Assembly: GCA_964426605.1 (NCBI GenBank)
Contig: CAYRQK010000001.1
Coordinates: 16,419-80,418, forward strand
Reading direction: 5' to 3'
Origin: an uncultured Candidatus Saccharibacteria bacterium
GTDB taxonomy: Bacteria > Patescibacteriota > Saccharimonadia > Saccharimonadales > UBA4665
Length of the DNA: 64,000 bases
Position 1 is the first letter of the stretch. Every line of letters starts with the position of its first letter. The notes under the pieces were generated by a model. That model ran no database searches and was not told where the DNA came from. It saw nothing but the letters and a program-made list of their open reading frames with translations. Both the position numbers and the translations under genes were made by a program. Shown one piece after another: positions 4,760-62,346 of the stretch.

Positions 4760-4979
4760 GATGCATATCAGTATAGCGTACCGTGATAACTGCGCTGCGT
4801 AGGCACGGGTTGTATAATATAGGCGTGTTCTTTAACACATTCGATTACAACTTTCGCTAAGAGCGGCCAAAAGGGGTCGAGGCCCGACCTTTCCTGGCCG
4901 CTCTCAGAACAAGACAGTGTACCGCACCCGTGTGTGGGACTATAGGCTGGCTTGGCGACGCTCGCAGGAAGGGAATGCC

Positions 4980-5789
4980 ATGACAAAGGCATCCTTGGCT
5001 CAGGGGAAGCAGATCCTCGATCTGTTCTCTGGTTGCAGCAGTGAAGAAGTTCAACAGTTTATCGAAGCCGGTGACTTGCTTGGTATGATGGCCGTAACCG
5101 ACCTCAAACGAGTTGATCGTAGGGCTTTTGCCGATCTGCTGGCCGGGTCGGTACCGGCAGCAGCACTCAAGCTATGGTCCACTGCTGATGTTCTCCGAGC
5201 TTTTGTAGCCCGGAATAACGAACGCGGATGGGGCTTTACGAGAGAACAGATTAGTACTCTGGAGGTGAGTATGCCGGCTGACGCTGTCAGTCGTCTCGAC
5301 GATATGTCCAGCTTGGAGATATGGCTGGGTGACCTGCCGACGACCTTCGAGGAACTATGGGCCTGGAATGTACATGTGCATGGCAGTGCCTGGCGCTACG
5401 ACGGACTCAAGTCAGACTCGCAGCATCTGCGCTTGCTTGACCCTGAACAGTCCTATAGTAGTCAGCTGTCAGCTAGGTGGGTCAAGCTCGACATCACTGC
5501 CAACCGCGGTCAGACATCGGAGGATATTGACGACTCCATGGGCTACCCGGGGCTTGCCGTCCTGGCGGCCGCCGCGCTGCAACCCATCTGGTTGCCAGCC
5601 ATTGATCGCGATGGTCTGTTGGGCGTTTGGCTGTTTGGCCTACTGGCGATGATTCCTGGCGAGCATGCCTGGAGGAATGTCCCACTTCTATTCTGGGATC
5701 ATGGCAGTCATGATGAGGTTGGTCTCCATGCCCGTTGGAGCGGTCACCGACGCCGGGATTGTACAGTCCCGGTGTTCAAGAAGTTGTAA
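4980..5789 (+). CDS. hypothetical protein (no recognisable domain)
   Basis: The ATG at 4980 is preceded by GGAAGGG 6-7 nt upstream. The track start at 4917 lacks an RBS. The ORF appears more GC-rich than its neighbours by eye. Confidence 0.55.
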   Translation: MTKASLAQGKQILDLFSGCSSEEVQQFIEAGDLLGMMAVTDLKRVDRRAFADLLAGSVPAAALKLWSTADVLRAFVARNNERGWGFTREQISTLEVSMPADAVSRLDDMSSLEIWLGDLPTTFEELWAWNVHVHGSAWRYDGLKSDSQHLRLLDPEQSYSSQLSARWVKLDITANRGQTSEDIDDSMGYPGLAVLAAAALQPIWLPAIDRDGLLGVWLFGLLAMIPGEHAWRNVPLLFWDHGSHDEVGLHARWSGHRRRDCTVPVFKKL

Positions 5790-5867
5790 TCGAGGGAGTC
5801 TTCGGACTCTCGCGGGCGTGGTCGGACTTTATCTGAGTCTTCGGATCGAAGTCCGACCGCCCCACCC

Positions 5868-5927
5868 GGGTACCTGTCGTTTGTTGCTCCGCAGCAATTA
5901 TCAGACAGGTACCCTTTTCCATTTTTT
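5868..5927 (+). terminator. intrinsic terminator-like long hairpin
   Basis: GGGTACCTGTC (5868-5878) pairs with GACAGGTACCC (5904-5914). An inner TTGCT/AGCAA stem is present, and the hairpin is followed by TTTTCCATTTTTT. Confidence 0.55.
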
Positions 5928-5941
5928 GATACCATACGCGT

Positions 5942-8777: not shown

Positions 8778-8796
8778 CTAGAGGTCCGACCTCTAG
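8778..8796. repeat. REP-like palindrome copy (CTAGAGGTC-C-GACCTCTAG)
   Basis: Perfect 9+1+9 palindrome. It has the same core as the palindromes flanking the RAYT gene at 47850 and 48537. Confidence 0.8.
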
Positions 8797-8918
8797 ATGG
8801 GTTTGTGGGCTTGGGGAACTGCGGGGTGGAGACGATGGATACATGTGTGTGGTTTGGATGCTAGAATGCATCAAACTGACATAATTATCATCGCTCCACC
8901 CCGTGAGGTAGTTCTCTG

Positions 8919-9104
8919 TTAGAGATTGTTTCTGTCGTAACCGAACTTATCCATGAAATTGTCCAGTTCGTTCGCGGCTTTCATGAACAGTTCGTCGTCC
9001 CTGGCGCGGCACTCATCGCACAGCAGATCAAATTGCTCTTCGGTGAATTTCTTGCCGCATTCGTCGCACGCCCCGTGATCTTGCGTGTCGTCTTCGGACA
9101 TCAT
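8919..9104 (-). CDS. small zinc-ribbon protein (hypothetical)
   Basis: 61 aa with two CxxC pairs (CDECGKK...CDEC). It lies downstream of the 9114-9473 gene on the same strand. Confidence 0.5.
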   Translation of the reverse strand: MMSEDDTQDHGACDECGKKFTEEQFDLLCDECRARDDELFMKAANELDNFMDKFGYDRNNL

Positions 9105-9113
9105 TACTCCTTG

Positions 9114-9473
9114 TCAGAGCTCGGAACTGGGCCGGTACTGGGGAGGAGTCTGGCTGTAGTCACCAATGCGAGCACGCTCGAACGGTGATCTATTGCGGAG
9201 GTCGTAGCGACCAGTAGCTTGGGCGGCAAAATTAATATTACCGTAGCCGGCATTCGCGAGTCCGAAGCGGGTACGCATCTGCGCGTTCTGCCAGAAGGTG
9301 TTGGACCTCCGAGCTCGGTCGAGCAGGTAGACAATGCGACCCAGGCGGATCACAACGAGTGCGAGCAGCACGAGCACGGCAATCTGGAACGAGGCCGTCG
9401 GGTGAGTCTGGACAATGTCCACACCCTTGGTGATCGGTCCTTCGAGCCAGCTGAGCGGGTTGAGGTTGAACAT
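9114..9473 (-). CDS. hypothetical single-pass membrane protein
   Basis: The ATG at 9473 (MFNLNPLSW...) is preceded by AGAAAGG 8 nt upstream. One TM helix (FQIAVLVLLALVVIRLG). Confidence 0.5.
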   Translation of the reverse strand: MFNLNPLSWLEGPITKGVDIVQTHPTASFQIAVLVLLALVVIRLGRIVYLLDRARRSNTFWQNAQMRTRFGLANAGYGNINFAAQATGRYDLRNRSPFERARIGDYSQTPPQYRPSSEL

Positions 9474-9746
9474 GTTGGTGCCTTTCTGTTGATGAGTAAT
9501 GATGGGGTGCGGCCAAACGATAGAGTATCGCGTCGTCACAACCCACCATCGACACCAACACCATAAAAGGCAATCTAACAGAGAATTTGTTAAAGTGCTT
9601 CGGAGAAAAGTATTTCTCGACGAAACTATATAATTCTGTCATAAATACTAGTAAATGTCAATACACTCCAAGAAGGAAAGCTTACTGTATTTCTGAAGGG
9701 AACAGGGTACAATAAACCATAAGCCTGTTTTCAGGCCTTATACGTA

Positions 9747-14001: not shown

Positions 14002-15807
14002 ATGAACCAAGACCATATTCGGAACTTTTGTATAGTGGCACATATCGACCATGGCAAATCAACGCTGGCTGACCGTTTGCTGGAGCTAACTGGCACGGTG
14101 CAGAAACGTGATATGAAGGCGCAGTTGCTCGACCGCATGGATCTAGAGCGCGAAAAGGGTATTACTATCAAGCTGGCCCCCGTCCGTATGCAGTACAAAG
14201 ACTACGAGCTGAACCTGATCGACACCCCCGGACACGTCGATTTTAGTTATGAGGTATCTCGGAGCCTTGAGGCCTGCGAGGGGGCTTTGCTCGTAGTAGA
14301 TGCCAGTCAGGGCATCCAGGCCCAGACACTGGCCAACGTGTATCTGGCAATGGCCGCCAATCTGGCAATCATCCCCGTTTTGAACAAAATAGACCTACCG
14401 GCTGCCGATGTTGAACGCGTGGGTGCTGAAATAGTCAGCTTGTTGGGTTGCCAATTCGAGGACATTATACAGATATCGGCCAAAACTGGCTTAGGTGTTG
14501 AAACGGTGCTGGAGCGCATCGTCACCGATGTCCCATCGCCATCTAGAGGTCCGACCTCTAACGGCGAAAGTGACCTGGATGCAACGGATACGAGGGCGTT
14601 AATTTTTGATAGCTACTACGATGATTATCGCGGTGTAATTTTGTATGTACGGGTGTTTGAGGGTGAAATTGGCAAGGGTGTTCACATTCGCATGATGGCC
14701 ACCGGCGCCAACGGCATTGCACTAGAGGTCGGTGCGCTCAGGCCTCAAATGTCACCCGGCAAAGGTTTGGCCGCCGGCGAGATTGGCTACATCGTCACCA
14801 ACCTCAAAACCACTCGTGATGCCAAGGTGGGTGACACGGTTACGCTCACAGCTCAGCCTGCCACCCAAATGTTGCCTGGCTACAGGGATGTACGACCGTT
14901 TGTGTATGCGGGCTTCTTCCCGGAGAGCAATGAATTCTATCAGGAGTTGAAGGACGCTGTTGAGAAGCTTTCTTTGAGCGACAGTGCCTTGCAATTCGAG
15001 CCGGAGAATTCGCCGGTGCTAGGCTTTGGTGTGCGCATTGGTTTCTTGGGTTTACTGCATATGGATATTGTGCGCGAGCGACTAGAGCGCGAGTACAACC
15101 TGGAGTTAGTGGTCACTAACCCCTCAACCGACTACCAAGTGACGATGACGAATGGGGAAGAGATTGATATCAAGAGTGCTGCCGACCTGCCCGATCCGGC
15201 ACACATCGAGGAGATTCATGAGCCGTGGATCAAGGGCGAAATTGTTGTCCCGGATAGGTATGTTGGTGCGGTCATTCAGCTCATTAATAGCAAGCGCGGC
15301 TTGCACAAGAATCTTAGCTATGTCGATACGCAAGCACTCGTCAGCTTCGAGGCGCCGCTGGCCAATTTACTAACGGATTTTTACGATCAACTCAAAAGTA
15401 TTACGAGTGGCTACGGTAGCTTCAACTACGAGCTTGATGATTACCGGGCGGAAGATTTGGTGCGGGTAGATTTCTACGTGGCTGGCGAAATAGTCGGTGC
15501 GCTCAGTGTCATGGCTCACCGCTCGGAGGCGCAGAGCCTAGGTCGTACCACAGTTGAGAAACTCAAGGAAGTCATACCACGGCAGAATTTCCAGGTGGCA
15601 TTGCAGGCAGCCATTGGCGGTAAGTTTATCGCTCGCGAAGACTTGAGTGCCTACCGCAAAGACGTTACAACTGGTCTGTACGGTGGTGATGTGTCGCGCA
15701 AGAAAAAGGTCTTGGCCAAACAGGCTAAAGGCAAAAAACGCATGAAGCGCTTTGGTAAGGTTGATATTCCAGCCGAAGCCTTCACCATCATGCTCAAACG
15801 AGATTAG
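14002..15807 (+). CDS. lepA: translation elongation factor 4 (LepA)
   Basis: IRNFCIVAHIDHGKSTLADRLL, DTPGHVDF and NKIDL motifs, plus the conserved LepA C-terminal domain. TATAAT (13988-13993) lies 8 nt upstream of the ATG. Confidence 0.98.
   Translation: MNQDHIRNFCIVAHIDHGKSTLADRLLELTGTVQKRDMKAQLLDRMDLEREKGITIKLAPVRMQYKDYELNLIDTPGHVDFSYEVSRSLEACEGALLVVDASQGIQAQTLANVYLAMAANLAIIPVLNKIDLPAADVERVGAEIVSLLGCQFEDIIQISAKTGLGVETVLERIVTDVPSPSRGPTSNGESDLDATDTRALIFDSYYDDYRGVILYVRVFEGEIGKGVHIRMMATGANGIALEVGALRPQMSPGKGLAAGEIGYIVTNLKTTRDAKVGDTVTLTAQPATQMLPGYRDVRPFVYAGFFPESNEFYQELKDAVEKLSLSDSALQFEPENSPVLGFGVRIGFLGLLHMDIVRERLEREYNLELVVTNPSTDYQVTMTNGEEIDIKSAADLPDPAHIEEIHEPWIKGEIVVPDRYVGAVIQLINSKRGLHKNLSYVDTQALVSFEAPLANLLTDFYDQLKSITSGYGSFNYELDDYRAEDLVRVDFYVAGEIVGALSVMAHRSEAQSLGRTTVEKLKEVIPRQNFQVALQAAIGGKFIAREDLSAYRKDVTTGLYGGDVSRKKKVLAKQAKGKKRMKRFGKVDIPAEAFTIMLKRD
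14542..14560. repeat. REP-like palindrome embedded in the lepA coding sequence
   Basis: TCTAGAGGTCCGACCTCTA is read in frame as S-R-G-P-T-S. It contains a 17-nt perfect palindrome at 14544-14560. Confidence 0.75.
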
Positions 15808-45933: not shown

Positions 45934-47775
45934 TTATTCCTCGGCGGTGACGCGCAAAATTTCTTCGATAGTCGTTTCACCGCGCAATGCCTTAATAAAA
46001 CCGTCGATCTGCATTGTGAGCATACCCTCGGCGATGGCTGTTTCTTGGATTTTCTCACTGGTGGAGTTACTGACAATGAGTGTTTGGATCGGTTCGGAGT
46101 TGTGTAGCACCTCGTAGATACCGATTCGCCCCTTGTAACCAGTGTGATTGCAGGCGTTACAGCCCTCGGGATTCGCTCGGTATAGCGTCTGGATTTTGCT
46201 GGCGCTGGAGCCGAGATCTTTGATGGCTTTACCGATGTTGCCAGCCAGTGCCTGGGTCTCGAGTTGGTGGATTTTGGTCATAGTGTCGGCCTTGTCGATG
46301 CCAAAGTTCTTGGCGAGCTGGTGAGTCTCCGCCTCAGTCGGATTGTGTGCCTGGCGACAGGTGGTACATAGCCGGCGCACCAGACGTTGGCCGATAACGG
46401 CCCGCACCGTGCTGGCGATCAGGAACGGTTCGATGTTCATGTCGAGCAGTCGTGGCAAACACGTCGCGGCGTTGTTGGTGTGCAGGGTCGAGAACACCAG
46501 GTGTCCGGTGAGTGCTGCTTGGACGCCCAGCTCGGCAGTTTCGCCATCGCGAATTTCACCCACCATGATGATGTTAGGGTCTTGTCGCAGCAGGGCGCGC
46601 AGACCGCTGTCGAAGGTCATACCGGCAATAGGGTTGACCTGGGTCTGGTTGACGCCCGGTATGCGGTACTCCACCGGATCCTCGACGGTCGAGATGTTGA
46701 CGTTGGGCGAATTGAGGATGCTGAGCACACTAAATAGTGTCGTGGATTTGCCGGAGCCAGTGGGGCCTGTGACCAGTATCATGCCGTGTGGCTGGACGAT
46801 AGCGTGCTCAACGGTCTCTTTGGCCGAACCCCAGAAGCCCAGTTCTTCGAGGCTGGCAGCCTTGGACGACTCGTTGAGGATACGCATAACCACCTTCTCG
46901 CCGTCGACAATTGGCAGGGTCGAGACACGTAGGGCGTAGACGTTGCCCCCAACTTGGACTTTGAAACGGCCGTCTTGTGGTGCACGGTGTTCGTCAATCT
47001 TGAGGTTGCTGAGGATTTTGATACGACTGACGAGTGCGCCAAGCGTTTTACGTGGTAACTTATTGGCTTCGTGTAGCAGGCCATCGATGCGGTAGCGGAC
47101 AATGACGTAGCCTTCGCGTGGCTCAATGTGGATATCGCTGGCGCCGGCCTTGACACCGTATTCGATGATTAGGTTCACACTTTGGGCGATTGGTGAATCC
47201 TCGGCTAGGTCATCCTCGCTAACTTCATCGACCTCCTCGGCTGTGTCGCCACTGGTTATAACCTCGGTGATTTCATTACTGATATTGTCGCCACGGTACT
47301 GATCGAGTGCGGCCTGTAACAGTGTAGAGGTAGTGATATAAATGCGGATGTCGTCGCCAAGCTGTTTGTGTAAGAAGTTGAGTGCCTGAATGTCGTCAGG
47401 ATCTTCCATGGCAACCAGCTTGACGTCTTGCTTGTCGACGTCAAATACCACGGCGTGATACTGCCGGGCGATGCGCTCGGGCAGCGCCTTCAAAATGTCC
47501 CTTTTGATGTCACGGGCTACCAGTTCGACGAGTGGCACCTCAATCTCGTCGGCGTAGAGCTTGGTCAGATCTTTCTCGCTAACCAAATTCTCTTTAATGG
47601 CCAAATCTTGCAGTGGTTTTTTCTCAGTAGCTTCGCGAGCTCGCAAAGCGTCGATCTGTTCACCAGTTGCTTTGCTGCTTTTTTTGAGTAGTTTTTCGAC
47701 CAAAGAATCCGGTATGCGCACGGTAACACTCTCCACCAGTGACTTTTGTATGCTAACCCTAGAGGCTGGCACCAT
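45934..47775 (-). CDS. pilB: type IV pilus assembly ATPase PilB (GspE family)
   Basis: Walker A GPTGSGKSTT; Asp and His boxes; a tetracysteine motif (CTTC...CNAC); and an N-terminal T2SSE_N-like domain. Confidence 0.95.
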   Translation of the reverse strand: MVPASRVSIQKSLVESVTVRIPDSLVEKLLKKSSKATGEQIDALRAREATEKKPLQDLAIKENLVSEKDLTKLYADEIEVPLVELVARDIKRDILKALPERIARQYHAVVFDVDKQDVKLVAMEDPDDIQALNFLHKQLGDDIRIYITTSTLLQAALDQYRGDNISNEITEVITSGDTAEEVDEVSEDDLAEDSPIAQSVNLIIEYGVKAGASDIHIEPREGYVIVRYRIDGLLHEANKLPRKTLGALVSRIKILSNLKIDEHRAPQDGRFKVQVGGNVYALRVSTLPIVDGEKVVMRILNESSKAASLEELGFWGSAKETVEHAIVQPHGMILVTGPTGSGKSTTLFSVLSILNSPNVNISTVEDPVEYRIPGVNQTQVNPIAGMTFDSGLRALLRQDPNIIMVGEIRDGETAELGVQAALTGHLVFSTLHTNNAATCLPRLLDMNIEPFLIASTVRAVIGQRLVRRLCTTCRQAHNPTEAETHQLAKNFGIDKADTMTKIHQLETQALAGNIGKAIKDLGSSASKIQTLYRANPEGCNACNHTGYKGRIGIYEVLHNSEPIQTLIVSNSTSEKIQETAIAEGMLTMQIDGFIKALRGETTIEEILRVTAEE

Positions 47776-47849: not shown

Positions 47850-47876
47850 CTATCTAGAGGTCGGACCTCTAGATAG
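47850..47876. repeat. REP-like palindrome upstream of the RAYT gene
   Basis: CTATCTAGAGGTC-G-GACCTCTAGATAG, with perfect 13-nt arms. Confidence 0.85.
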
Positions 47877-47904
47877 ATTTTTGCCACTGCGCTACACTGG
47901 AATT

Positions 47905-48528
47905 ATGCCCAGTCGTAACGTGCGTAAAACAGATGTAGCCGAGAGTTATTATCACGTGTATGCTCGCGGCATTAGCCGTCAGCGGATCTTTCGAGAACCA
48001 GCCGATTTTGTGAAATTCTTGCGCTTGTTCGGGCGTTATCTGTCGCTACGGGAGACCAAGAGTGCCGCCGGCGTATCGTTCCCTAATTATTACAATAAAC
48101 TCGAGCTGACCTGTTTTTGTTTGATGCCCAATCACTTTCATTTGCTGATTTACCAGCGCCAACAGGGCGCAATGACAGAGTTTATGCGAGGCCTACTGAC
48201 GAGCTATAGTATGTATTTCAATAAGAAGTACAAGCGCAGCGGACCACTGTTTGAGTCGCGCTACAAGGCATCGCTGATATCTGACGACACTTATTTGGAG
48301 CACATCACGCGCTATATTCACCTCAATCCGCGGCTGTGGCGGAACTATGAGTACTCCAGTCTGCCGTATTATTTGCATCAAATTTCGGATGAGTGGGTTC
48401 GGCCCGAACGTATCATTTCACAGTTTCCGACACCCGCCGAGTATCTACAATTTGTCCAAGACTACGTGCAGCGTAAGGAGATGTTGGATATCTTAAAACA
48501 TGAGTTAGCAGACTCCGCAACGAGCTAA
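47905..48528 (+). CDS. REP-associated tyrosine transposase (RAYT; IS200/IS605-like HUH Y1 transposase)
   Basis: YYHVYARGISRQRIF N-terminus, HUH motif MPNHFHLLIY, and catalytic Tyr region ITRYIHLNP. Palindromes flank the gene on both sides. The ATG at 47905 lies 6 nt after TACACT. Confidence 0.85.
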   Translation: MPSRNVRKTDVAESYYHVYARGISRQRIFREPADFVKFLRLFGRYLSLRETKSAAGVSFPNYYNKLELTCFCLMPNHFHLLIYQRQQGAMTEFMRGLLTSYSMYFNKKYKRSGPLFESRYKASLISDDTYLEHITRYIHLNPRLWRNYEYSSLPYYLHQISDEWVRPERIISQFPTPAEYLQFVQDYVQRKEMLDILKHELADSATS

Positions 48529-48536
48529 AATGTCAT

Positions 48537-48555
48537 CTAGAGGTCGGACCTCTAG
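48537..48555. repeat. REP-like palindrome downstream of the RAYT gene
   Basis: CTAGAGGTC-G-GACCTCTAG, 8 nt after the RAYT stop, followed by GTAGC. Confidence 0.85.
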
Positions 48556-48653
48556 GTAGCATTTTGAGTTTGCATTGGATGGTGGTGCGGTATATACCAG
48601 GAGTACAAGCTAACGGTTAATCAACGACCTACGTCGTATAAGGAGAATGAACT

Positions 48654-49697
48654 ATGGCTGCAAAGAAGGAAGAAAAGACAATGGCGGACGTGTCCGCGGT
48701 TGATGGAAAAAGTAAAGCACTAGGATTAGCACTGGAGAGTATCGAGAAGCAGTATGGCAAAGGTTCCATCATGAAGTTGGGTGAGTCGACCCACGCCAAT
48801 GTCGAGACGATCCCAACCGGTGCTGTTTCGCTCGATCTGGCGCTCGGTGGCGGTATCCCGAGAGGTCGCGTGGTAGAAATCTATGGCCCGGAAAGTTCTG
48901 GTAAAACGACCCTGACCCTGCACATCATTGCCGAATGCCAGAAGCGTGGTGGCACAGCGGCATTTATCGATGCCGAGCATGCGCTGGACCCGTCGTACGC
49001 TAAGCGTATCGGGGTGGATACCGAAAACCTGTTGCTGAGCCAGCCGGACAACGGCGAGCAGGCATTGGAGATCACCGAGACGTTGGTGCGCTCTAATGCG
49101 GTTGATGTCATCGTGGTCGACTCGGTGGCGGCACTGGTGCCACGAGCTGAGATCGAGGGTGATATGGGTGACAGCTTACCTGGTTTGCAAGCTCGTCTTA
49201 TGAGTCAGGCACTGCGCAAATTGACTGGTGTGATCTCGCGATCCAAGGCCACGGTTATATTTATTAACCAGATTCGTATGAAGATTGGCGTCATGTTCGG
49301 TAATCCTGAAACGACAACTGGCGGTAATGCATTGAAGTTTTACGCCTCGGTACGCTGTGATATCCGTCGTATTGGCCAAATCAAACAAGGTGAAGATGTT
49401 ATCGGCAACCGTACTCGCGTGAAGGTCGTCAAGAACAAGATTGCGCCGCCGTTCCGCCAGGCTGAGTTCGACATCATGTACAACGAAGGTATCAGTAAAT
49501 CCGGCGACATTCTAGACTTGGCCGTAGAGCGCAACATTGTCGATAAATCTGGCGCCTGGTTTGCCTACAACGATGCCAAAATTGGCCAGGGTCGCGAAGC
49601 CGCCAAGACCTACTTGCAGGAAAATCCCAAAGTCATGGCTGAGATTGCCAAGAAGGTCACGACTGAAGCGACCGCTGAAGCTGCTGCCAAGGAATAG
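48654..49697 (+). CDS. recA: recombinase RecA
   Basis: Walker [10 protein letters not shown], and [10 protein letters not shown]. An AAGGAG SD lies upstream. Confidence 0.99.
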
Positions 49698-58384: not shown

Positions 58385-58498
<114 letters not shown>

Positions 58499-59452: not shown

Positions 59453-59529
59453 CGGGGTGTGGCGCAGCTTGGTAGCGCGCGTCGTTCGGGACGACGAGGT
59501 CGCTGGTTCAAATCCAGTCACCCCGACCA
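59453..59529 (+). tRNA. tRNA-Pro (CGG)
   Basis: CGGGGTGTGGCGCAGCTTGGTAGCGCGCGTCGTTCGGGACGACGAGGTCGCTGGTTCAAATCCAGTCACCCCGACCA. Anticodon loop is TTCGGGA. Confidence 0.95.
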
Positions 59530-59566
59530 ATGAAATACCACCAGGTATCCTTGGTGGTATTTCATT
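59530..59566 (+). terminator. intrinsic terminator after tRNA-Pro(CGG)
   Basis: 15-bp stem (A)ATGAAATACCACCA / TGGTGGTATTTCATT with an 8-nt loop. Confidence 0.75.
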
Positions 59567-62195: not shown

Positions 62196-62229
62196 TAGTA
62201 TAACAGGGTGATCTTTTGGCTGAAACCGG

Positions 62230-62269
62230 CCCCAAATAAAAAGCCCGGTTGATTACCGGACTCTTTATT
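62230..62269 (-). terminator. hairpin/terminator after tRNA-His
   Basis: CCCCAAATAAA...TTTATTTGGGG outer arms with an inner CCGG/CCGG stem. It partly overlaps the tRNA 3' end. Confidence 0.5.
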
Positions 62270-62346
62270 TGGGGCGAAAGACGGGACTTGAACCCGCGAC
62301 AACCTGGACCACAACCAGGGGCTCTACCAACTGAGCTACTTCCGCC
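62270..62346 (-). tRNA. tRNA-His (GTG) with encoded G-1
   Basis: The reverse complement is G-GCGGAAGTAGCTCAGTTGGTAGAGCCCCTGGTTGTGGTCCAGGTTGTCGCGGGTTCAAGTCCCGTCTTTCGCCCCA. The anticodon loop is TTGTGGT. The extra 5' G lies opposite discriminator C. Confidence 0.93.

What the first reader, a model, noticed from the sequence alone, without database searches (positions are those of the whole stretch)
47850..48555. RAYT-type HUH transposase bracketed by perfect palindromes that are dispersed through the window (REP/RAYT system)
The 207-aa ORF carries the IS200/RAYT hallmarks: YHVYARG, the HUH motif NHFHLLIY and the catalytic Tyr in RYIHLNP.

It is bracketed by two copies of one palindrome:
- 47850-47876: CTATCTAGAGGTC-G-GACCTCTAGATAG
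- 48537-48555: CTAGAGGTC-G-GACCTCTAG

The same core recurs at 8778-8796, downstream of ftsH, and at 14542-14560, inside lepA. A stretched relative, GGTCGGAC...GTCCGACC, lies at 5820-5858.

A single-copy domesticated Y1 transposase with short dispersed hairpins is the REP/RAYT architecture, which is known mainly from Proteobacteria. I am not aware of it being described in reduced CPR-like genomes, where repeat expansion is unexpected.
Basis: partly seen in the sequence, partly recalled or inferred. Interest (0 to 1): 0.7.

Follow-up and report, generated by a model that had tools for sequence, protein, structure and literature searches.

The report
Saccharibacterial RAYT-like gene with cognate palindromes
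A single-copy, vertically inherited relative of REP-associated tyrosine transposases sits between pilB and recA in a Saccharibacteria genome, bracketed by a short palindrome whose few other copies, some translated in frame inside housekeeping genes such as lepA, change in step with it from genome to genome.

Summary
A 207-aa HUH/Tyr (Y1) protein is encoded at 47905-48528. It is bracketed by CTAGAGGTCGGACCTCTAG at 47854 and 48537. Two more copies lie downstream of ftsH (8778) and inside lepA (14543, one mismatch). None are expected by chance. The "stretched relative" at 5820 is unrelated.

The gene is not an insertion sequence. Orthologues at 71-83% identity keep the order pilB | Y1 | recA in other Saccharibacteria, and synonymous sites are saturated. 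The predicted fold best matches E. coli TnpA-REP bound to a REP hairpin.

- **Bracketing is family-wide.** In 66 of 74 loci at 31-100% identity, the upstream and downstream flanks share a locus-specific sequence. It is usually a hairpin with an RGG-N5-CCY apex and a covarying stem.
- **Dispersed copies track the flank variant.** In every genome checked they carry that genome's own variant.
- **Occupancy is patchy.** Sites are filled in some orthologous positions and empty in others.

It departs from canonical REP/RAYT in several ways. Copy number is low (about 4-10 exact copies per related genome). There is no GTAG tag, and the protein scores below the NCBIfam RAYT cut-off. Its motifs fit TnpAY1 subclass 2.1, which was reported to lack REPs. 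Many copies lie in frame within housekeeping genes.

Verdict: a new variant of the REP/RAYT kind. Mobility is inferred, not shown.

The parts
47850..47876 (.). 5' flanking palindrome CTATCTAGAGGTC-G-GACCTCTAGATAG. It ends 28 nt before the start codon of the Y1 gene.
   Evidence: Single-stranded DNA hairpin -10.4 kcal/mol, z -5.4. An equivalent palindrome lies upstream of orthologues in L006, L032 and L034, and of most family members.
47905..48528 (+). Gene for the 207-aa Y1 HUH protein (RAYT-like). HUH = H77/H79 (nt 48133-48141). Catalytic Tyr137 in YIHLNP (nt 48313-48315). SS motif at aa 151-152.
   Evidence: Pfam Y1_Tnp 42.8 bits, cut-off 23. NCBIfam REP_Tyr_transpos 41.7 bits, cut-off 80. 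AlphaFold2 pLDDT 95.6. Best PDB fold match is 4er8_A, TnpA-REP with a REP hairpin. Conserved synteny.
48537..48555 (.). 3' flanking palindrome CTAGAGGTC-G-GACCTCTAG, 8 nt after the stop codon and upstream of the recA promoter region. An imperfect extension spans 48527-48565.
   Evidence: (I4). A positionally equivalent palindrome lies downstream of every orthologue examined.
8778..8796 (.). Dispersed copy CTAGAGGTCCGACCTCTAG, 45 nt downstream of ftsH. It sits at the edge of about 1 kb of accessory DNA that related genomes lack.
   Evidence: The site is empty in L115 and L116, and L117 also has no palindrome in the stretch held. A copy of that genome's own variant lies downstream of ftsH in L017.
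14536..14567 (.). Intragenic copy in lepA: core 14543-14561 CTAGAGGTCCGACCTCTAA plus outer stem TCGCC/GGCGA. It is read in frame as ..PSRGPTSNG.. in the linker after the G domain.
   Evidence: The window's LepA is 601 aa; most orthologues are 592 aa with no insert at this point.
45934..47775 (-). pilB (type IV pilus ATPase), the conserved upstream neighbour, transcribed divergently.
   Evidence: Pfam T2SSE and MshEN. Same neighbour in L006, L008, L009, L032 and L034.
48654..49697 (+). recA, the downstream neighbour on the same strand in all syntenic loci where a gene was called there.
   Evidence: Pfam RecA 473 bits. recA is called in that position in L001, L003, L005, L006, L009, L032 and L034. 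In L008 no recA gene was called, but the DNA downstream encodes a RecA-like N-terminus.

Best explanation
This is a REPtron-like unit. It consists of a domesticated, vertically inherited Y1 HUH single-strand DNA endonuclease/ligase (RAYT-like; motifs of TnpAY1 subclass 2.1 / Bertels Group 1) and its small family of cognate hairpins.

Proposed mechanism: when DNA is single-stranded, during replication, transcription or uptake, each palindrome folds into a hairpin. The protein recognises the conserved apex (RGG-N5-CCY). Its variable stem coevolves with the protein. Using the HUH-bound metal and Tyr137, the protein nicks and rejoins DNA at the foot of the hairpin. Over evolutionary time this copies, replaces, flips or deletes hairpin units. 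The few copies in a genome therefore stay identical to the pair that brackets the gene, while occupancy of individual sites changes. In these gene-dense genomes many surviving copies sit in frame in tolerant protein loops.

Shown here: the catalytic motifs and the fold; hairpin potential; bracketing across the family; genome-specific covariation; presence/absence at orthologous sites; synteny and purifying selection.

Inferred: binding to single-stranded DNA, cleavage chemistry and position, and that this protein, rather than recombination or selection, drives the homogenisation.
For: 1. Enzyme. The protein has HUH and Y-x3-NP motifs. Pfam Y1_Tnp is above threshold. A high-confidence model (pLDDT 95.6) has E. 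coli TnpA-REP bound to a REP hairpin as its best PDB match (4er8_A, E 3.8e-6, TM 0.63 normalised to the target, 173 columns). IS200/IS605 TnpAs follow.

2. Domestication.
- The order pilB(-) | Y1(+) | recA(+) is kept in orthologues of 71-83% identity.
- dN is 0.13-0.26 while dS is saturated.
- There is one copy in the window and no tnpB neighbour.
- The family is almost absent from plasmids (13 of 72,556 records, all 36% identity or less) and phages (1 record).

3. Bracketing is a family property.
- 66 of 74 loci (31-100% identity) share an 11-mer or longer between upstream and downstream flanks, against 2 expected.
- In 45 of these the shared word holds a hairpin stem of at least 5 bp.
- In 74 unique hairpins aligned on their centre, positions +/-3 and +/-4 are G-C (partly by selection) and +/-5 is A-T or G-C. 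Positions +/-6 to +/-11 use all four pair types yet are 76-99% paired.

4. Genome-specific covariation.
- Window: flanks and both dispersed copies are GGTCSGACC.
- Contig CAVSRJ: all 10 exact copies are GGACGGACC or its complement.
- Genome CAZYFP: 4 of 4 copies are the same asymmetric form.
- Genome CAZHCS: 4 of 4 are gaCTAG..CTAGtc.
- Genome A: flanks and the lepA insert are both TCTAGAGAACGGACCTCTAGA.
- Genome B: flanks and the lepA insert are both TCAGAGGTCCGTCCTCTGA.
- More distant contigs L039, L046, L056, L079, L091, L096, L104 and L113 also hold extra copies of, or close to, their own variant.

5. Turnover.
- The lepA linker is expanded beyond the common 13-aa state in 33 of 120 orthologues, in at least 10 separate clusters of an NJ tree. 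Lengths and centre orientations differ.
- All five inserts checked at the DNA level contain the palindrome core.
- The lepA and ftsH-downstream sites are empty in L115 and L116.

6. Specificity. The 19-mer pattern occurs in 20 stretches among 185,579 species genomes, 19 of them Saccharibacteria. It occurs in none of the viral contigs.

7. Self-targeting. Distant relatives carry their own palindrome in frame inside the RAYT gene. This was reported for REP-associated subclass 2.4 (PMC6006769).
Against: - No transposition event, excision footprint or target duplication could be defined.
- Copy number is low, and I could not count copies in the source genome itself.
- Several sites recur across genomes: the gene flanks, the lepA linker and the DNA downstream of ftsH (where the distance from the ftsH stop differs). 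Fixed functional sites that coevolve with a binding protein would also produce this.
- Near-perfect dyad symmetry fits a dimeric double-strand-DNA binder as well as it fits a hairpin.
- The protein is below the NCBIfam RAYT cut-off.
- The palindromes lack the GT[AG]G guide of canonical REPs.
- Subclass 2.1, which its motifs match, was reported to have no REPs (PMC6006769).
Confidence: 0.7

Rival explanations
1. The sites are fixed and functional, not mobile repeats. On this view the Y1 protein has been domesticated into a sequence-specific DNA-binding or nicking factor. It would act at a handful of fixed palindromic sites: its own promoter, the recA upstream region, the DNA downstream of ftsH, and lepA. 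Possible roles are regulation or a chromosome function. Protein and sites coevolve, which gives genome-specific variants without transposition.
For: - Copy number is low.
- Sites recur at the gene flanks, in the lepA linker and downstream of ftsH across genomes.
- The 5' copy overlaps the region just upstream of the gene's start, and the 3' copy lies just upstream of a conserved recA promoter-like motif.
- Odd-length dyad symmetry is typical of dimeric operator sites.
Against: - Sites are occupied patchily. lepA is filled in about a quarter of orthologues, in many separate clusters, with different lengths and both centre orientations.
- The ftsH-downstream and lepA sites are empty in L115 and L116.
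- Other copies lie in unrelated genes in different genomes: MnmA, RNase HII, DHFR and a PrmC-like gene.
- Copies occur inside the RAYT gene itself in distant relatives.
- Parallel point changes at every site of a genome are harder to explain than copying.
Confidence: 0.2
2. It is an active IS200/IS605-type insertion sequence. The ORF would be a TnpA that moves itself using the two flanking hairpins as left and right ends.
For: The fold and HUH/Tyr chemistry are shared with IS608, ISDra2 and IS200 TnpA. The flanking hairpins are in the same orientation in this window, both with a central G.
Against: - The location between pilB and recA is the same in orthologues with saturated synonymous divergence.
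- It is single-copy, with no tnpB.
- It has Y-x3-NP rather than the Y-x3-Q of subclass 1.1 (PMC6006769).
- At 207 aa it has a C-terminal extension; IS200 TnpAs are about 150 aa.
- Its two ends are the same palindrome rather than distinct left and right ends.
Confidence: 0.03
3. The palindromes are ordinary transcription terminators or operators of some other factor, and their adjacency to the Y1 gene is incidental.
For: The 5' copy scores as terminator-like: a 12-bp stem followed by ATTTTTGCCA. Downstream copies in L006 and L009 are followed by T-rich runs.
Against: - The same locus-specific palindrome lies on both sides of the gene in 66 of 74 family loci, against 2 expected.
- There is no upstream + strand gene for the 5' copy to terminate, because pilB is divergent.
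- Copies lie inside coding sequences.
- The pattern is confined to genomes with this gene family.
Confidence: 0.03

Closest known systems
E. coli TnpA-REP (RayT/YafM) with REP/BIME sequences: the 'REPtron' (TnpAY1 subclass 2.2, Bertels Group 2; PDB 4ER8)
   Same: Both are single-copy, vertically inherited Y1 HUH proteins with a Y-x3-NP motif, bracketed by their cognate palindromes, with further copies elsewhere in the genome. Palindrome sequence is specific to the lineage. 4ER8 is the best structural match.
   Different: - Only about 10% sequence identity in the structural alignment, and below the NCBIfam equivalog cut-off.
- The palindromes lack the 5' GT[AG]G guide and the bulged long stems. 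They are near-perfect, with an RGG-N5-CCY apex.
- About 4-10 exact copies per genome here. REPs are usually reported at more than 100 copies per genome (PMC2817692).
- Many copies here are intragenic.
- No closely spaced inverted doublets (REPIN/BIME) in this genome.
TnpAY1 subclass 2.1 (Quentin et al. 2018, PMC6006769) = RAYT Group 1 (Bertels et al. 2017, PMC5581495), including the TIRYTs of Di Nocera et al. 2013 (PMC3733652)
   Same: The key motifs match the second motif set listed for subclass 2.1: NH[YF]H (NHFH here), FQ (FE here, FQ in the family consensus), Y[IV]HLNP (YIHLNP) and a downstream SS motif. Group 1 is the most widely distributed group. Its flanking 16-mers occur only about 12 times per replicon, similar to the low copy number seen here.
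   Different: - Subclass 2.1 was reported to have no REP-like sequences near the gene. Some members instead have long terminal inverted repeats with a GGGGWSAS motif. Here short hairpins bracket the gene.
- The proteins here are shorter (about 205 aa against a median of 238).
- The model shows one long C-terminal helix rather than an HTH domain.
- Assignment rests on motifs only. The authors' HMMs were not available.
TnpAY1 subclass 2.4 (Bertels Group 4)
   Same: In that subclass REPs are found in frame inside the tnpA-REP gene itself, and 'double-foot' symmetric REPs occur. Distant relatives of the window protein carry their own palindrome in frame at aa 45-65 and 147-155.
   Different: The motifs differ: subclass 2.4 has WQ and YIxNNP. 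Its REPs carry GT[AG]G...C[TC]AC feet. The window gene itself has no internal copy.
IS200/IS605 insertion sequences (IS608, ISDra2)
   Same: Same HUH/Tyr fold and probable single-strand DNA hairpin recognition.
   Different: Those elements are mobile and multi-copy, have a Y-x3-Q motif and distinct left and right ends, and often carry tnpB. None of this applies here.
Rickettsia palindromic elements (RPE; Ogata et al. 2000, from memory)
   Same: Palindromic repeats in a reduced genome that are tolerated in frame inside conserved protein-coding genes.
   Different: RPEs are about 100-150 bp and no associated RAYT is known to me. Here the unit is 19-32 nt and is tied to a Y1 gene.

Membership tests
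Y1 HUH transposase superfamily (Pfam PF01797 Y1_Tnp) | Profile match above the curated threshold | tested here: met
   42.8 bits against a cut-off of 23.
Y1 HUH transposase superfamily (Pfam PF01797 Y1_Tnp) | HUH metal-binding motif and a single catalytic Tyr on the following helix, with the fold to match | tested here: met
   H77-F78-H79 and Y137. H79 and Y137 are at least 90% conserved in 85 homologues. In the profile alignment to ISDra2 TnpA the HUH motifs and the Tyr-bearing motifs (RYI / KYI) coincide. Foldseek matches 4er8, 2xm3, 2f4f and 2vjv at E from 4e-6 to 4e-4.
RAYT / TnpA-REP (TnpAY1 class 2) | Y-x3-NP tyrosine motif (class 2 signature, PMC6006769) | tested here: met
   YIHLNP at aa 137-142. 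Y137, I138 and H139 are at least 90% conserved in 85 homologues. N141 and P142 are at least 90% conserved in the closer 28-sequence set.
RAYT / TnpA-REP (TnpAY1 class 2) | Low copy number and vertical, housekeeping-like inheritance | tested here: met
   One copy in the window. pilB|Y1|recA synteny holds in seven related loci. dS is saturated with dN 0.13-0.26.
RAYT / TnpA-REP (TnpAY1 class 2) | Gene bracketed by its cognate palindromes (REPtron arrangement) | tested here: met
   Window positions 47850-47876 and 48537-48555. 66 of 74 family loci share a flank word, against 2 expected.
RAYT / TnpA-REP (TnpAY1 class 2) | Cognate palindromes dispersed at high copy number, mostly extragenic | tested here: not met
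   Two extra copies in 64 kb. 4-10 exact copies in three related genomes. 15 extra copies in 261 kb of related loci. At least 9 non-flanking copies are intragenic: 5 in lepA, plus MnmA, RNase HII, DHFR and a PrmC-like gene. The source genome itself could not be counted.
RAYT / TnpA-REP (TnpAY1 class 2) | Canonical REP: 5' GT[AG]G guide tetranucleotide at the foot of the hairpin | tested here: not met
   The flanks read C[TC]AT-CTAG...CTAG-AT[AG]G, a symmetric extension of the stem. Across the family the outer stem is variable and no GT[AG]G stood out by eye; it was not scanned for.
RAYT / TnpA-REP (TnpAY1 class 2) | NCBIfam equivalog NF047646 REP_Tyr_transpos score cut-off | tested here: not met
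   41.7 bits against a cut-off of 80.
RAYT / TnpA-REP (TnpAY1 class 2) | Binds and cleaves its REP as single-stranded DNA | not testable with these tools
   Only hairpin potential could be computed: -6.3 to -10.7 kcal/mol.
TnpAY1 subclass 2.1 / RAYT Group 1 | Key motifs NH[YF]H, FQ, Y[IV]HLNP and SS (Table 1 of PMC6006769) | tested here: met
   NHFH, FE (FQ in the family consensus), YIHLNP, and S151-S152. This is a motif-level comparison only.
TnpAY1 subclass 2.1 / RAYT Group 1 | C-terminal HTH-like domain (Bac_DnaA_C, HTH_23 or HTH_28); median length 238 aa | tested here: not met
   The protein is 207 aa. There is no HTH Pfam hit. The model ends in one long helix, aa 177-205.
TnpAY1 subclass 2.1 / RAYT Group 1 | No REP near the gene, or long TIRs with a GGGGWSAS motif (TIRYT) | tested here: not met
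   Short hairpins bracket the gene instead. No GGGGWSAS repeat was seen in the flanks read.
TnpAY1 subclass 2.1 / RAYT Group 1 | Placement by the authors' subclass HMMs or phylogeny | not testable with these tools
   The HMMs and reference sequences are not held here.
IS200/IS605 insertion sequence | Y-x3-Q motif, core-only protein of about 150 aa | tested here: not met
   YIHLNP, 207 aa.
IS200/IS605 insertion sequence | Multiple near-identical copies at varying loci, often with tnpB | tested here: not met
   Single copy. The locus between pilB and recA is fixed. The neighbours are PilB and RecA.

The most novel reading that the evidence does not exclude
The hairpins may be more than passive repeats. 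Pairs of same-orientation palindromes could define mobilisable or exchangeable cassettes, with the Y1 protein working as a domesticated single-strand DNA cut-and-join enzyme tied to the competence/recombination neighbourhood (type IV pilus genes, Y1, recA-recX).

Hints:
- In the 730-kb contig CAVSRJ, two small unannotated ORFs (193 aa in L017, 147 aa in L018) are each bracketed by two palindromes 546-636 nt apart in direct orientation, as the Y1 gene is in this window. Such close pairs have P of about 0.002 by chance.
- Palindromes sit in accessory DNA inserted between ftsH and the virD4-like gene.
- The gene's position next to recA is conserved in all seven syntenic loci outside the source strain.
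Probability: 0.15. Interest if true: 0.8.

Novelty: new variant of a known kind. Interest (0 to 1): 0.55.

Why it matters
REP/RAYT systems are the textbook case of a domesticated transposase with a resident population of non-autonomous repeats. They have been characterised almost entirely in Proteobacteria and Cyanobacteria, with high-copy, GTAG-tagged, extragenic repeats.

Here the same logic appears in ultra-small Saccharibacteria genomes and their metagenomic relatives, in a stripped-down form:
- There are only a handful of untagged hairpins, with a conserved RGG-N5-CCY apex and a covarying stem.
- They are kept uniform within each genome.
- They are frequently tolerated in frame inside housekeeping proteins such as LepA, MnmA, RNase HII and DHFR.

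The protein's motifs match the largest RAYT group (subclass 2.1 / Group 1), for which no cognate hairpins had been found. This family could therefore supply the missing substrate for that group.

The small, well-defined hairpin set also makes binding specificity, strand choice and turnover directly testable. Genetic work is possible too, because some Saccharibacteria are now genetically tractable (PMC10633639).

Tried and rejected
- **5820-5858 'stretched relative'.** It is a real inverted repeat but shares only an 8-mer with the family. No Rfam match even at E up to 1. Rejected as a member.
- **Rfam on the whole window.** Only seven tRNAs. The palindromes are not a described RNA family.
- **Viral contigs.** No exact match to the palindrome.
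- **Sequence search of the PDB.** Only marginal hits (E 0.27 with the single sequence; E 0.01 for 2xm3 and 0.11 for 4er8 with a profile). Structure prediction plus Foldseek was needed.
- **The search for related loci with the diverse alignment A1.** It failed for lack of a conserved stretch. The closer alignment A2 worked.
- **dN/dS.** dS is saturated, so only the qualitative statement dN << dS can be made.
- **Promoter scan around the gene.** No sigma-70-like site. My hand-read -35/-10 (TAGATA-17-TACACT overlapping the 5' palindrome) is speculative and is not used as evidence.
- **Target-site duplication or exact insert boundaries in lepA.** These cannot be defined, because the linker itself varies.
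- **Variable outer stems from an exotic snap-back mechanism.** Considered and rejected. The outer 2-4 bp are simply genome-specific parts of a longer consensus.
- **LexA/SOS operator for the recA-proximal copy.** No supporting literature in the library. It also would not explain the intragenic copies.
- **Taxonomy of distant homologues via cluster names.** Mostly unnamed, so 'CPR-wide' is not claimed.
- **Counting copies in the source genome.** Not possible. It is not among the GTDB representative genomes scanned, and only 10-kb flanks can be fetched.
Full report
**1. What is in the window**

The ORF 47905-48528 (+) encodes 207 aa with YHVYARG, NHFHLLIY (HUH) and RYIHLNP (Tyr137).

The palindromes are as follows:
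- CTAGAGGTCGGACCTCTAG lies 32 nt before the ATG. It extends to a perfect 27-mer at 47850-47876.
- A second copy lies 8 nt after the stop (48537-48555).
- CTAGAGGTCCGACCTCTAG lies 45 nt after ftsH (8778-8796).
- CTAGAGGTCCGACCTCTAA lies inside lepA (14543-14561).

That is four matches at up to 3 mismatches against none in 100 shuffles. A looser core scan finds nothing else. All four fold as DNA hairpins of -6.3 to -10.7 kcal/mol.

The neighbours are PilB (divergent) and RecA (same strand). FtsH and LepA are confirmed.

The inverted repeat at 5815-5863 shares only GGTCGGAC with the family and is not a member.

**2. The protein**

- It passes Pfam Y1_Tnp (42.8 bits against 23).
- It does not pass the NCBIfam RAYT equivalog (41.7 bits against 80).
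- Sequence searches of the PDB are marginal.
- An AlphaFold2 model built on 85 homologues is very confident (pLDDT 95.6).
- Its best structural match is E. coli TnpA-REP bound to a REP hairpin (4er8_A, E 3.8e-6, 173 aligned columns). ISDra2, IS200 and IS608 TnpAs follow.
- Its motifs are NHFH, FE (FQ in the family consensus), YIHLNP and a downstream SS. They coincide with those tabulated for TnpAY1 subclass 2.1, which is Bertels Group 1 (PMC6006769).
- It is shorter than that subclass's median and lacks an HTH tail.

**3. It is a resident gene, not an insertion sequence**

- More than 6,000 homologues were found. The best 120 are 71-100% identical and nearly all 203-207 aa long. The few that carry names are from Saccharibacteria or Saccharimonadales.
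- In every related contig fetched the gene sits between pilB and recA: L006, L008, L009, L032 and L034, plus L021 by tblastn.
- Synonymous sites are saturated while dN is 0.13-0.26.
- There is one copy in the window and no tnpB.
- Relatives are nearly absent from plasmids and phages.

**4. The bracketing palindromes are conserved in position and covary in sequence**

Orthologous loci carry their own variants at the same two places:

| Locus | Upstream | Downstream |
|---|---|---|
| L006 | CTAGAGGTCCGTCCTCTAG | CTAGAGGACGGACCTCTAG |
| L009 | (degenerate copy) | CTATAGGACGGACCCATAG |
| L008 | (degenerate copy) | CTATGGGTCGTACCCATAG |
| L032 | TCTAGAGGTCCGTTCTCTAGA | TCTAGAGAACGGACCTCTAGA |
| L034 | TCAGAGGTCCGTCCTCTGA | TCAGAGGTCCGTCCTCTGA |

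A metagenome scan gave 80 more loci at 31-66% identity.
- Of 74 loci with both flanks available, 66 share an 11-mer or longer between the upstream and downstream flank. Two are expected by chance.
- In 45 of them the shared word holds a hairpin stem of at least 5 bp.
- I aligned 74 unique hairpins from 49 loci on their centres. The apex is RGG-N5-CCY. The stem at positions +/-6 to +/-11 uses all four pair types but stays 76-99% paired.
- This is covariation for dyad symmetry. It cannot by itself separate a single-strand hairpin from a double-strand dimer site.

**5. The dispersed copies belong to the same system**

The 19-mer pattern CTAGAGGWCSGWCCTCTAG occurs in 20 stretches among 185,579 species-representative genomes. 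Nineteen of these are in Saccharibacteria MAGs. None occur in viral contigs.

Within each genome all copies share the variant that flanks the gene:
- 10 of 10 in the 730-kb contig CAVSRJ;
- 4 of 4 in genome CAZYFP;
- 4 of 4 in genome CAZHCS;
- 4 of 4 in the window.

In two further genomes the lepA insert is identical to that genome's flank variant. Extra copies of, or close to, the locus-specific hairpin occur in several distant contigs.

Copy number is low: 4-10 exact copies in the three genomes with several hits, and 15 extra copies in 261 kb of fetched loci.

**6. Turnover**

The window's LepA is 601 aa. Most of the 120 closest orthologues are 592 aa and have nothing at this point in the linker.
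- 33 orthologues have a linker longer than the common 13-aa state.
- Most of these inserts read like translated palindromes: RGPTS, LRGPSS, IGPSY, GRTS, ERTS.
- They fall in at least 10 separate clusters of an NJ tree, with both centre orientations.

All five inserts examined at the DNA level contain the palindrome core. The lepA and ftsH-downstream sites are empty in L115 and L116. CAVSRJ has its own variant downstream of ftsH.

Either recurrent insertion at a preferred site, or an old insert that is repeatedly lost and kept uniform with the rest, would explain this. Both need copying or replacement, not just point mutation.

**7. Many copies are intragenic**

Besides lepA, palindromes lie in frame in these genes, each read as LE[DV][GR]PL[GV]:
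- MnmA (L022);
- RNase HII (L012);
- DHFR (L020);
- a PrmC-like methyltransferase (L016).

Only the two stop-free frames are used. In L006 the third frame supplies the recX stop codon.

Distant relatives carry their own palindrome in frame inside the RAYT gene at aa 45-65 and 147-155. This was reported for subclass 2.4. Intragenic REPs are known elsewhere (PMC3733652).

**8. Comparison with what is known**

The architecture works like a REPtron. Several defining features of canonical REP/RAYT are not met:
- high copy number;
- extragenic location;
- the GT[AG]G guide;
- the NCBIfam cut-off.

The motif-matched subclass 2.1 was reported to lack REPs. Bertels et al. did note about 12 occurrences per replicon of the flanking 16-mers for Group 1.

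No paper in the library connects RAYT or REP with Saccharibacteria or the CPR. I therefore rate it a new variant of a known kind.

**9. Limits**

- No biochemical or population-level evidence of mobility exists here.
- The source genome could not be counted.
- The taxonomy of the distant metagenomic relatives is mostly unknown.
- The fixed-site rival remains possible, at about 0.2.

Noticed in passing
window 14536-14567; LepA orthologues P0271-P0390; L031, L033, L117, L118: The LepA linker between 'PAPK' and 'TRALIFDSYYDDYRG' recurs as a site of palindrome occupancy. 33 of 120 orthologues have linkers longer than the common 13-aa state, in at least 10 tree clusters. All are read in the same frame relative to the palindrome centre, and both centre orientations occur.
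   Followed up: yes
L022 3943-3961, L012 6184-6202, L020 6376-6394, L016 7825-7843: Palindromes lie in frame inside MnmA, RNase HII, DHFR and a PrmC-like methyltransferase, translated as LEDGPLG, LEVGPLV or LEVRPLV. Whether orthologues lack these inserts was not checked.
   Followed up: partly
L017 1338-1990 and L018 4950-5514 (both on contig CAVSRJ010000001.1): Two small unannotated ORFs (193 aa and 147 aa, no Pfam match, unrelated to each other) are each bracketed by two palindromes in direct orientation, 546-636 nt apart. Such close pairs are unlikely by chance (P about 0.002). They may be cassette-like units.
   Followed up: partly
L056 6154 and 6461; also L058, L061, L063, L065, L079, L080, L089, L096, L113: Distant family members carry their own full palindrome in frame inside the RAYT gene at two spots: aa 45-65, and aa 147-155 just after the Y-x3-NP motif. 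The window gene has none.
   Followed up: partly
L006 12975-12993: The TAG stop codon of recX is formed by bases 2-4 of a palindrome copy. The insertion therefore defines the C-terminus of RecX in that genome.
   Followed up: no
window 48566-48653: The recA upstream region holds a motif conserved in L006, L008 and L009: TTT(T/G)AGTTTGCA, then about 17 nt, then GTATA(T)AC. It is probably the recA promoter and lies immediately after the 3' palindrome.
   Followed up: no
window 8797-9715: About 1 kb between ftsH and the virD4-like gene is absent from L115 and L116, where the intergenic region is 67-80 nt. It holds small ORFs. One is a 61-aa ORF with two Cys pairs, possibly a zinc ribbon (8919-9104, - strand). 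Another is a 141-aa ORF with a hydrophobic stretch (9114-9539, - strand).
   Followed up: partly
window 9682-9720; L115, L116, L017, L117: A conserved motif ACTGTATTTGT...AAAAGTGAGAGAATAG lies directly upstream of the virD4-like coupling-protein gene in all five genomes. It is a likely promoter or operator.
   Followed up: no
window 5815-5935: Nested G+C-rich hairpins with TTCG loops are followed by a long terminator-like hairpin (GGGTACCTGTC...GACAGGTACCC plus a T-rich tail) after ORF 4917-5789, which has no Pfam match. No Rfam family matches.
   Followed up: partly
window 58461-58498, 59529-59566, 62229-62275: Strong A+T-rich hairpins (two with perfect stems, one 90% complementary) abut or overlap the ends of tRNA-Pro(TGG), tRNA-Pro(CGG) and tRNA-His. 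They are probably terminators or processing signals.
   Followed up: no
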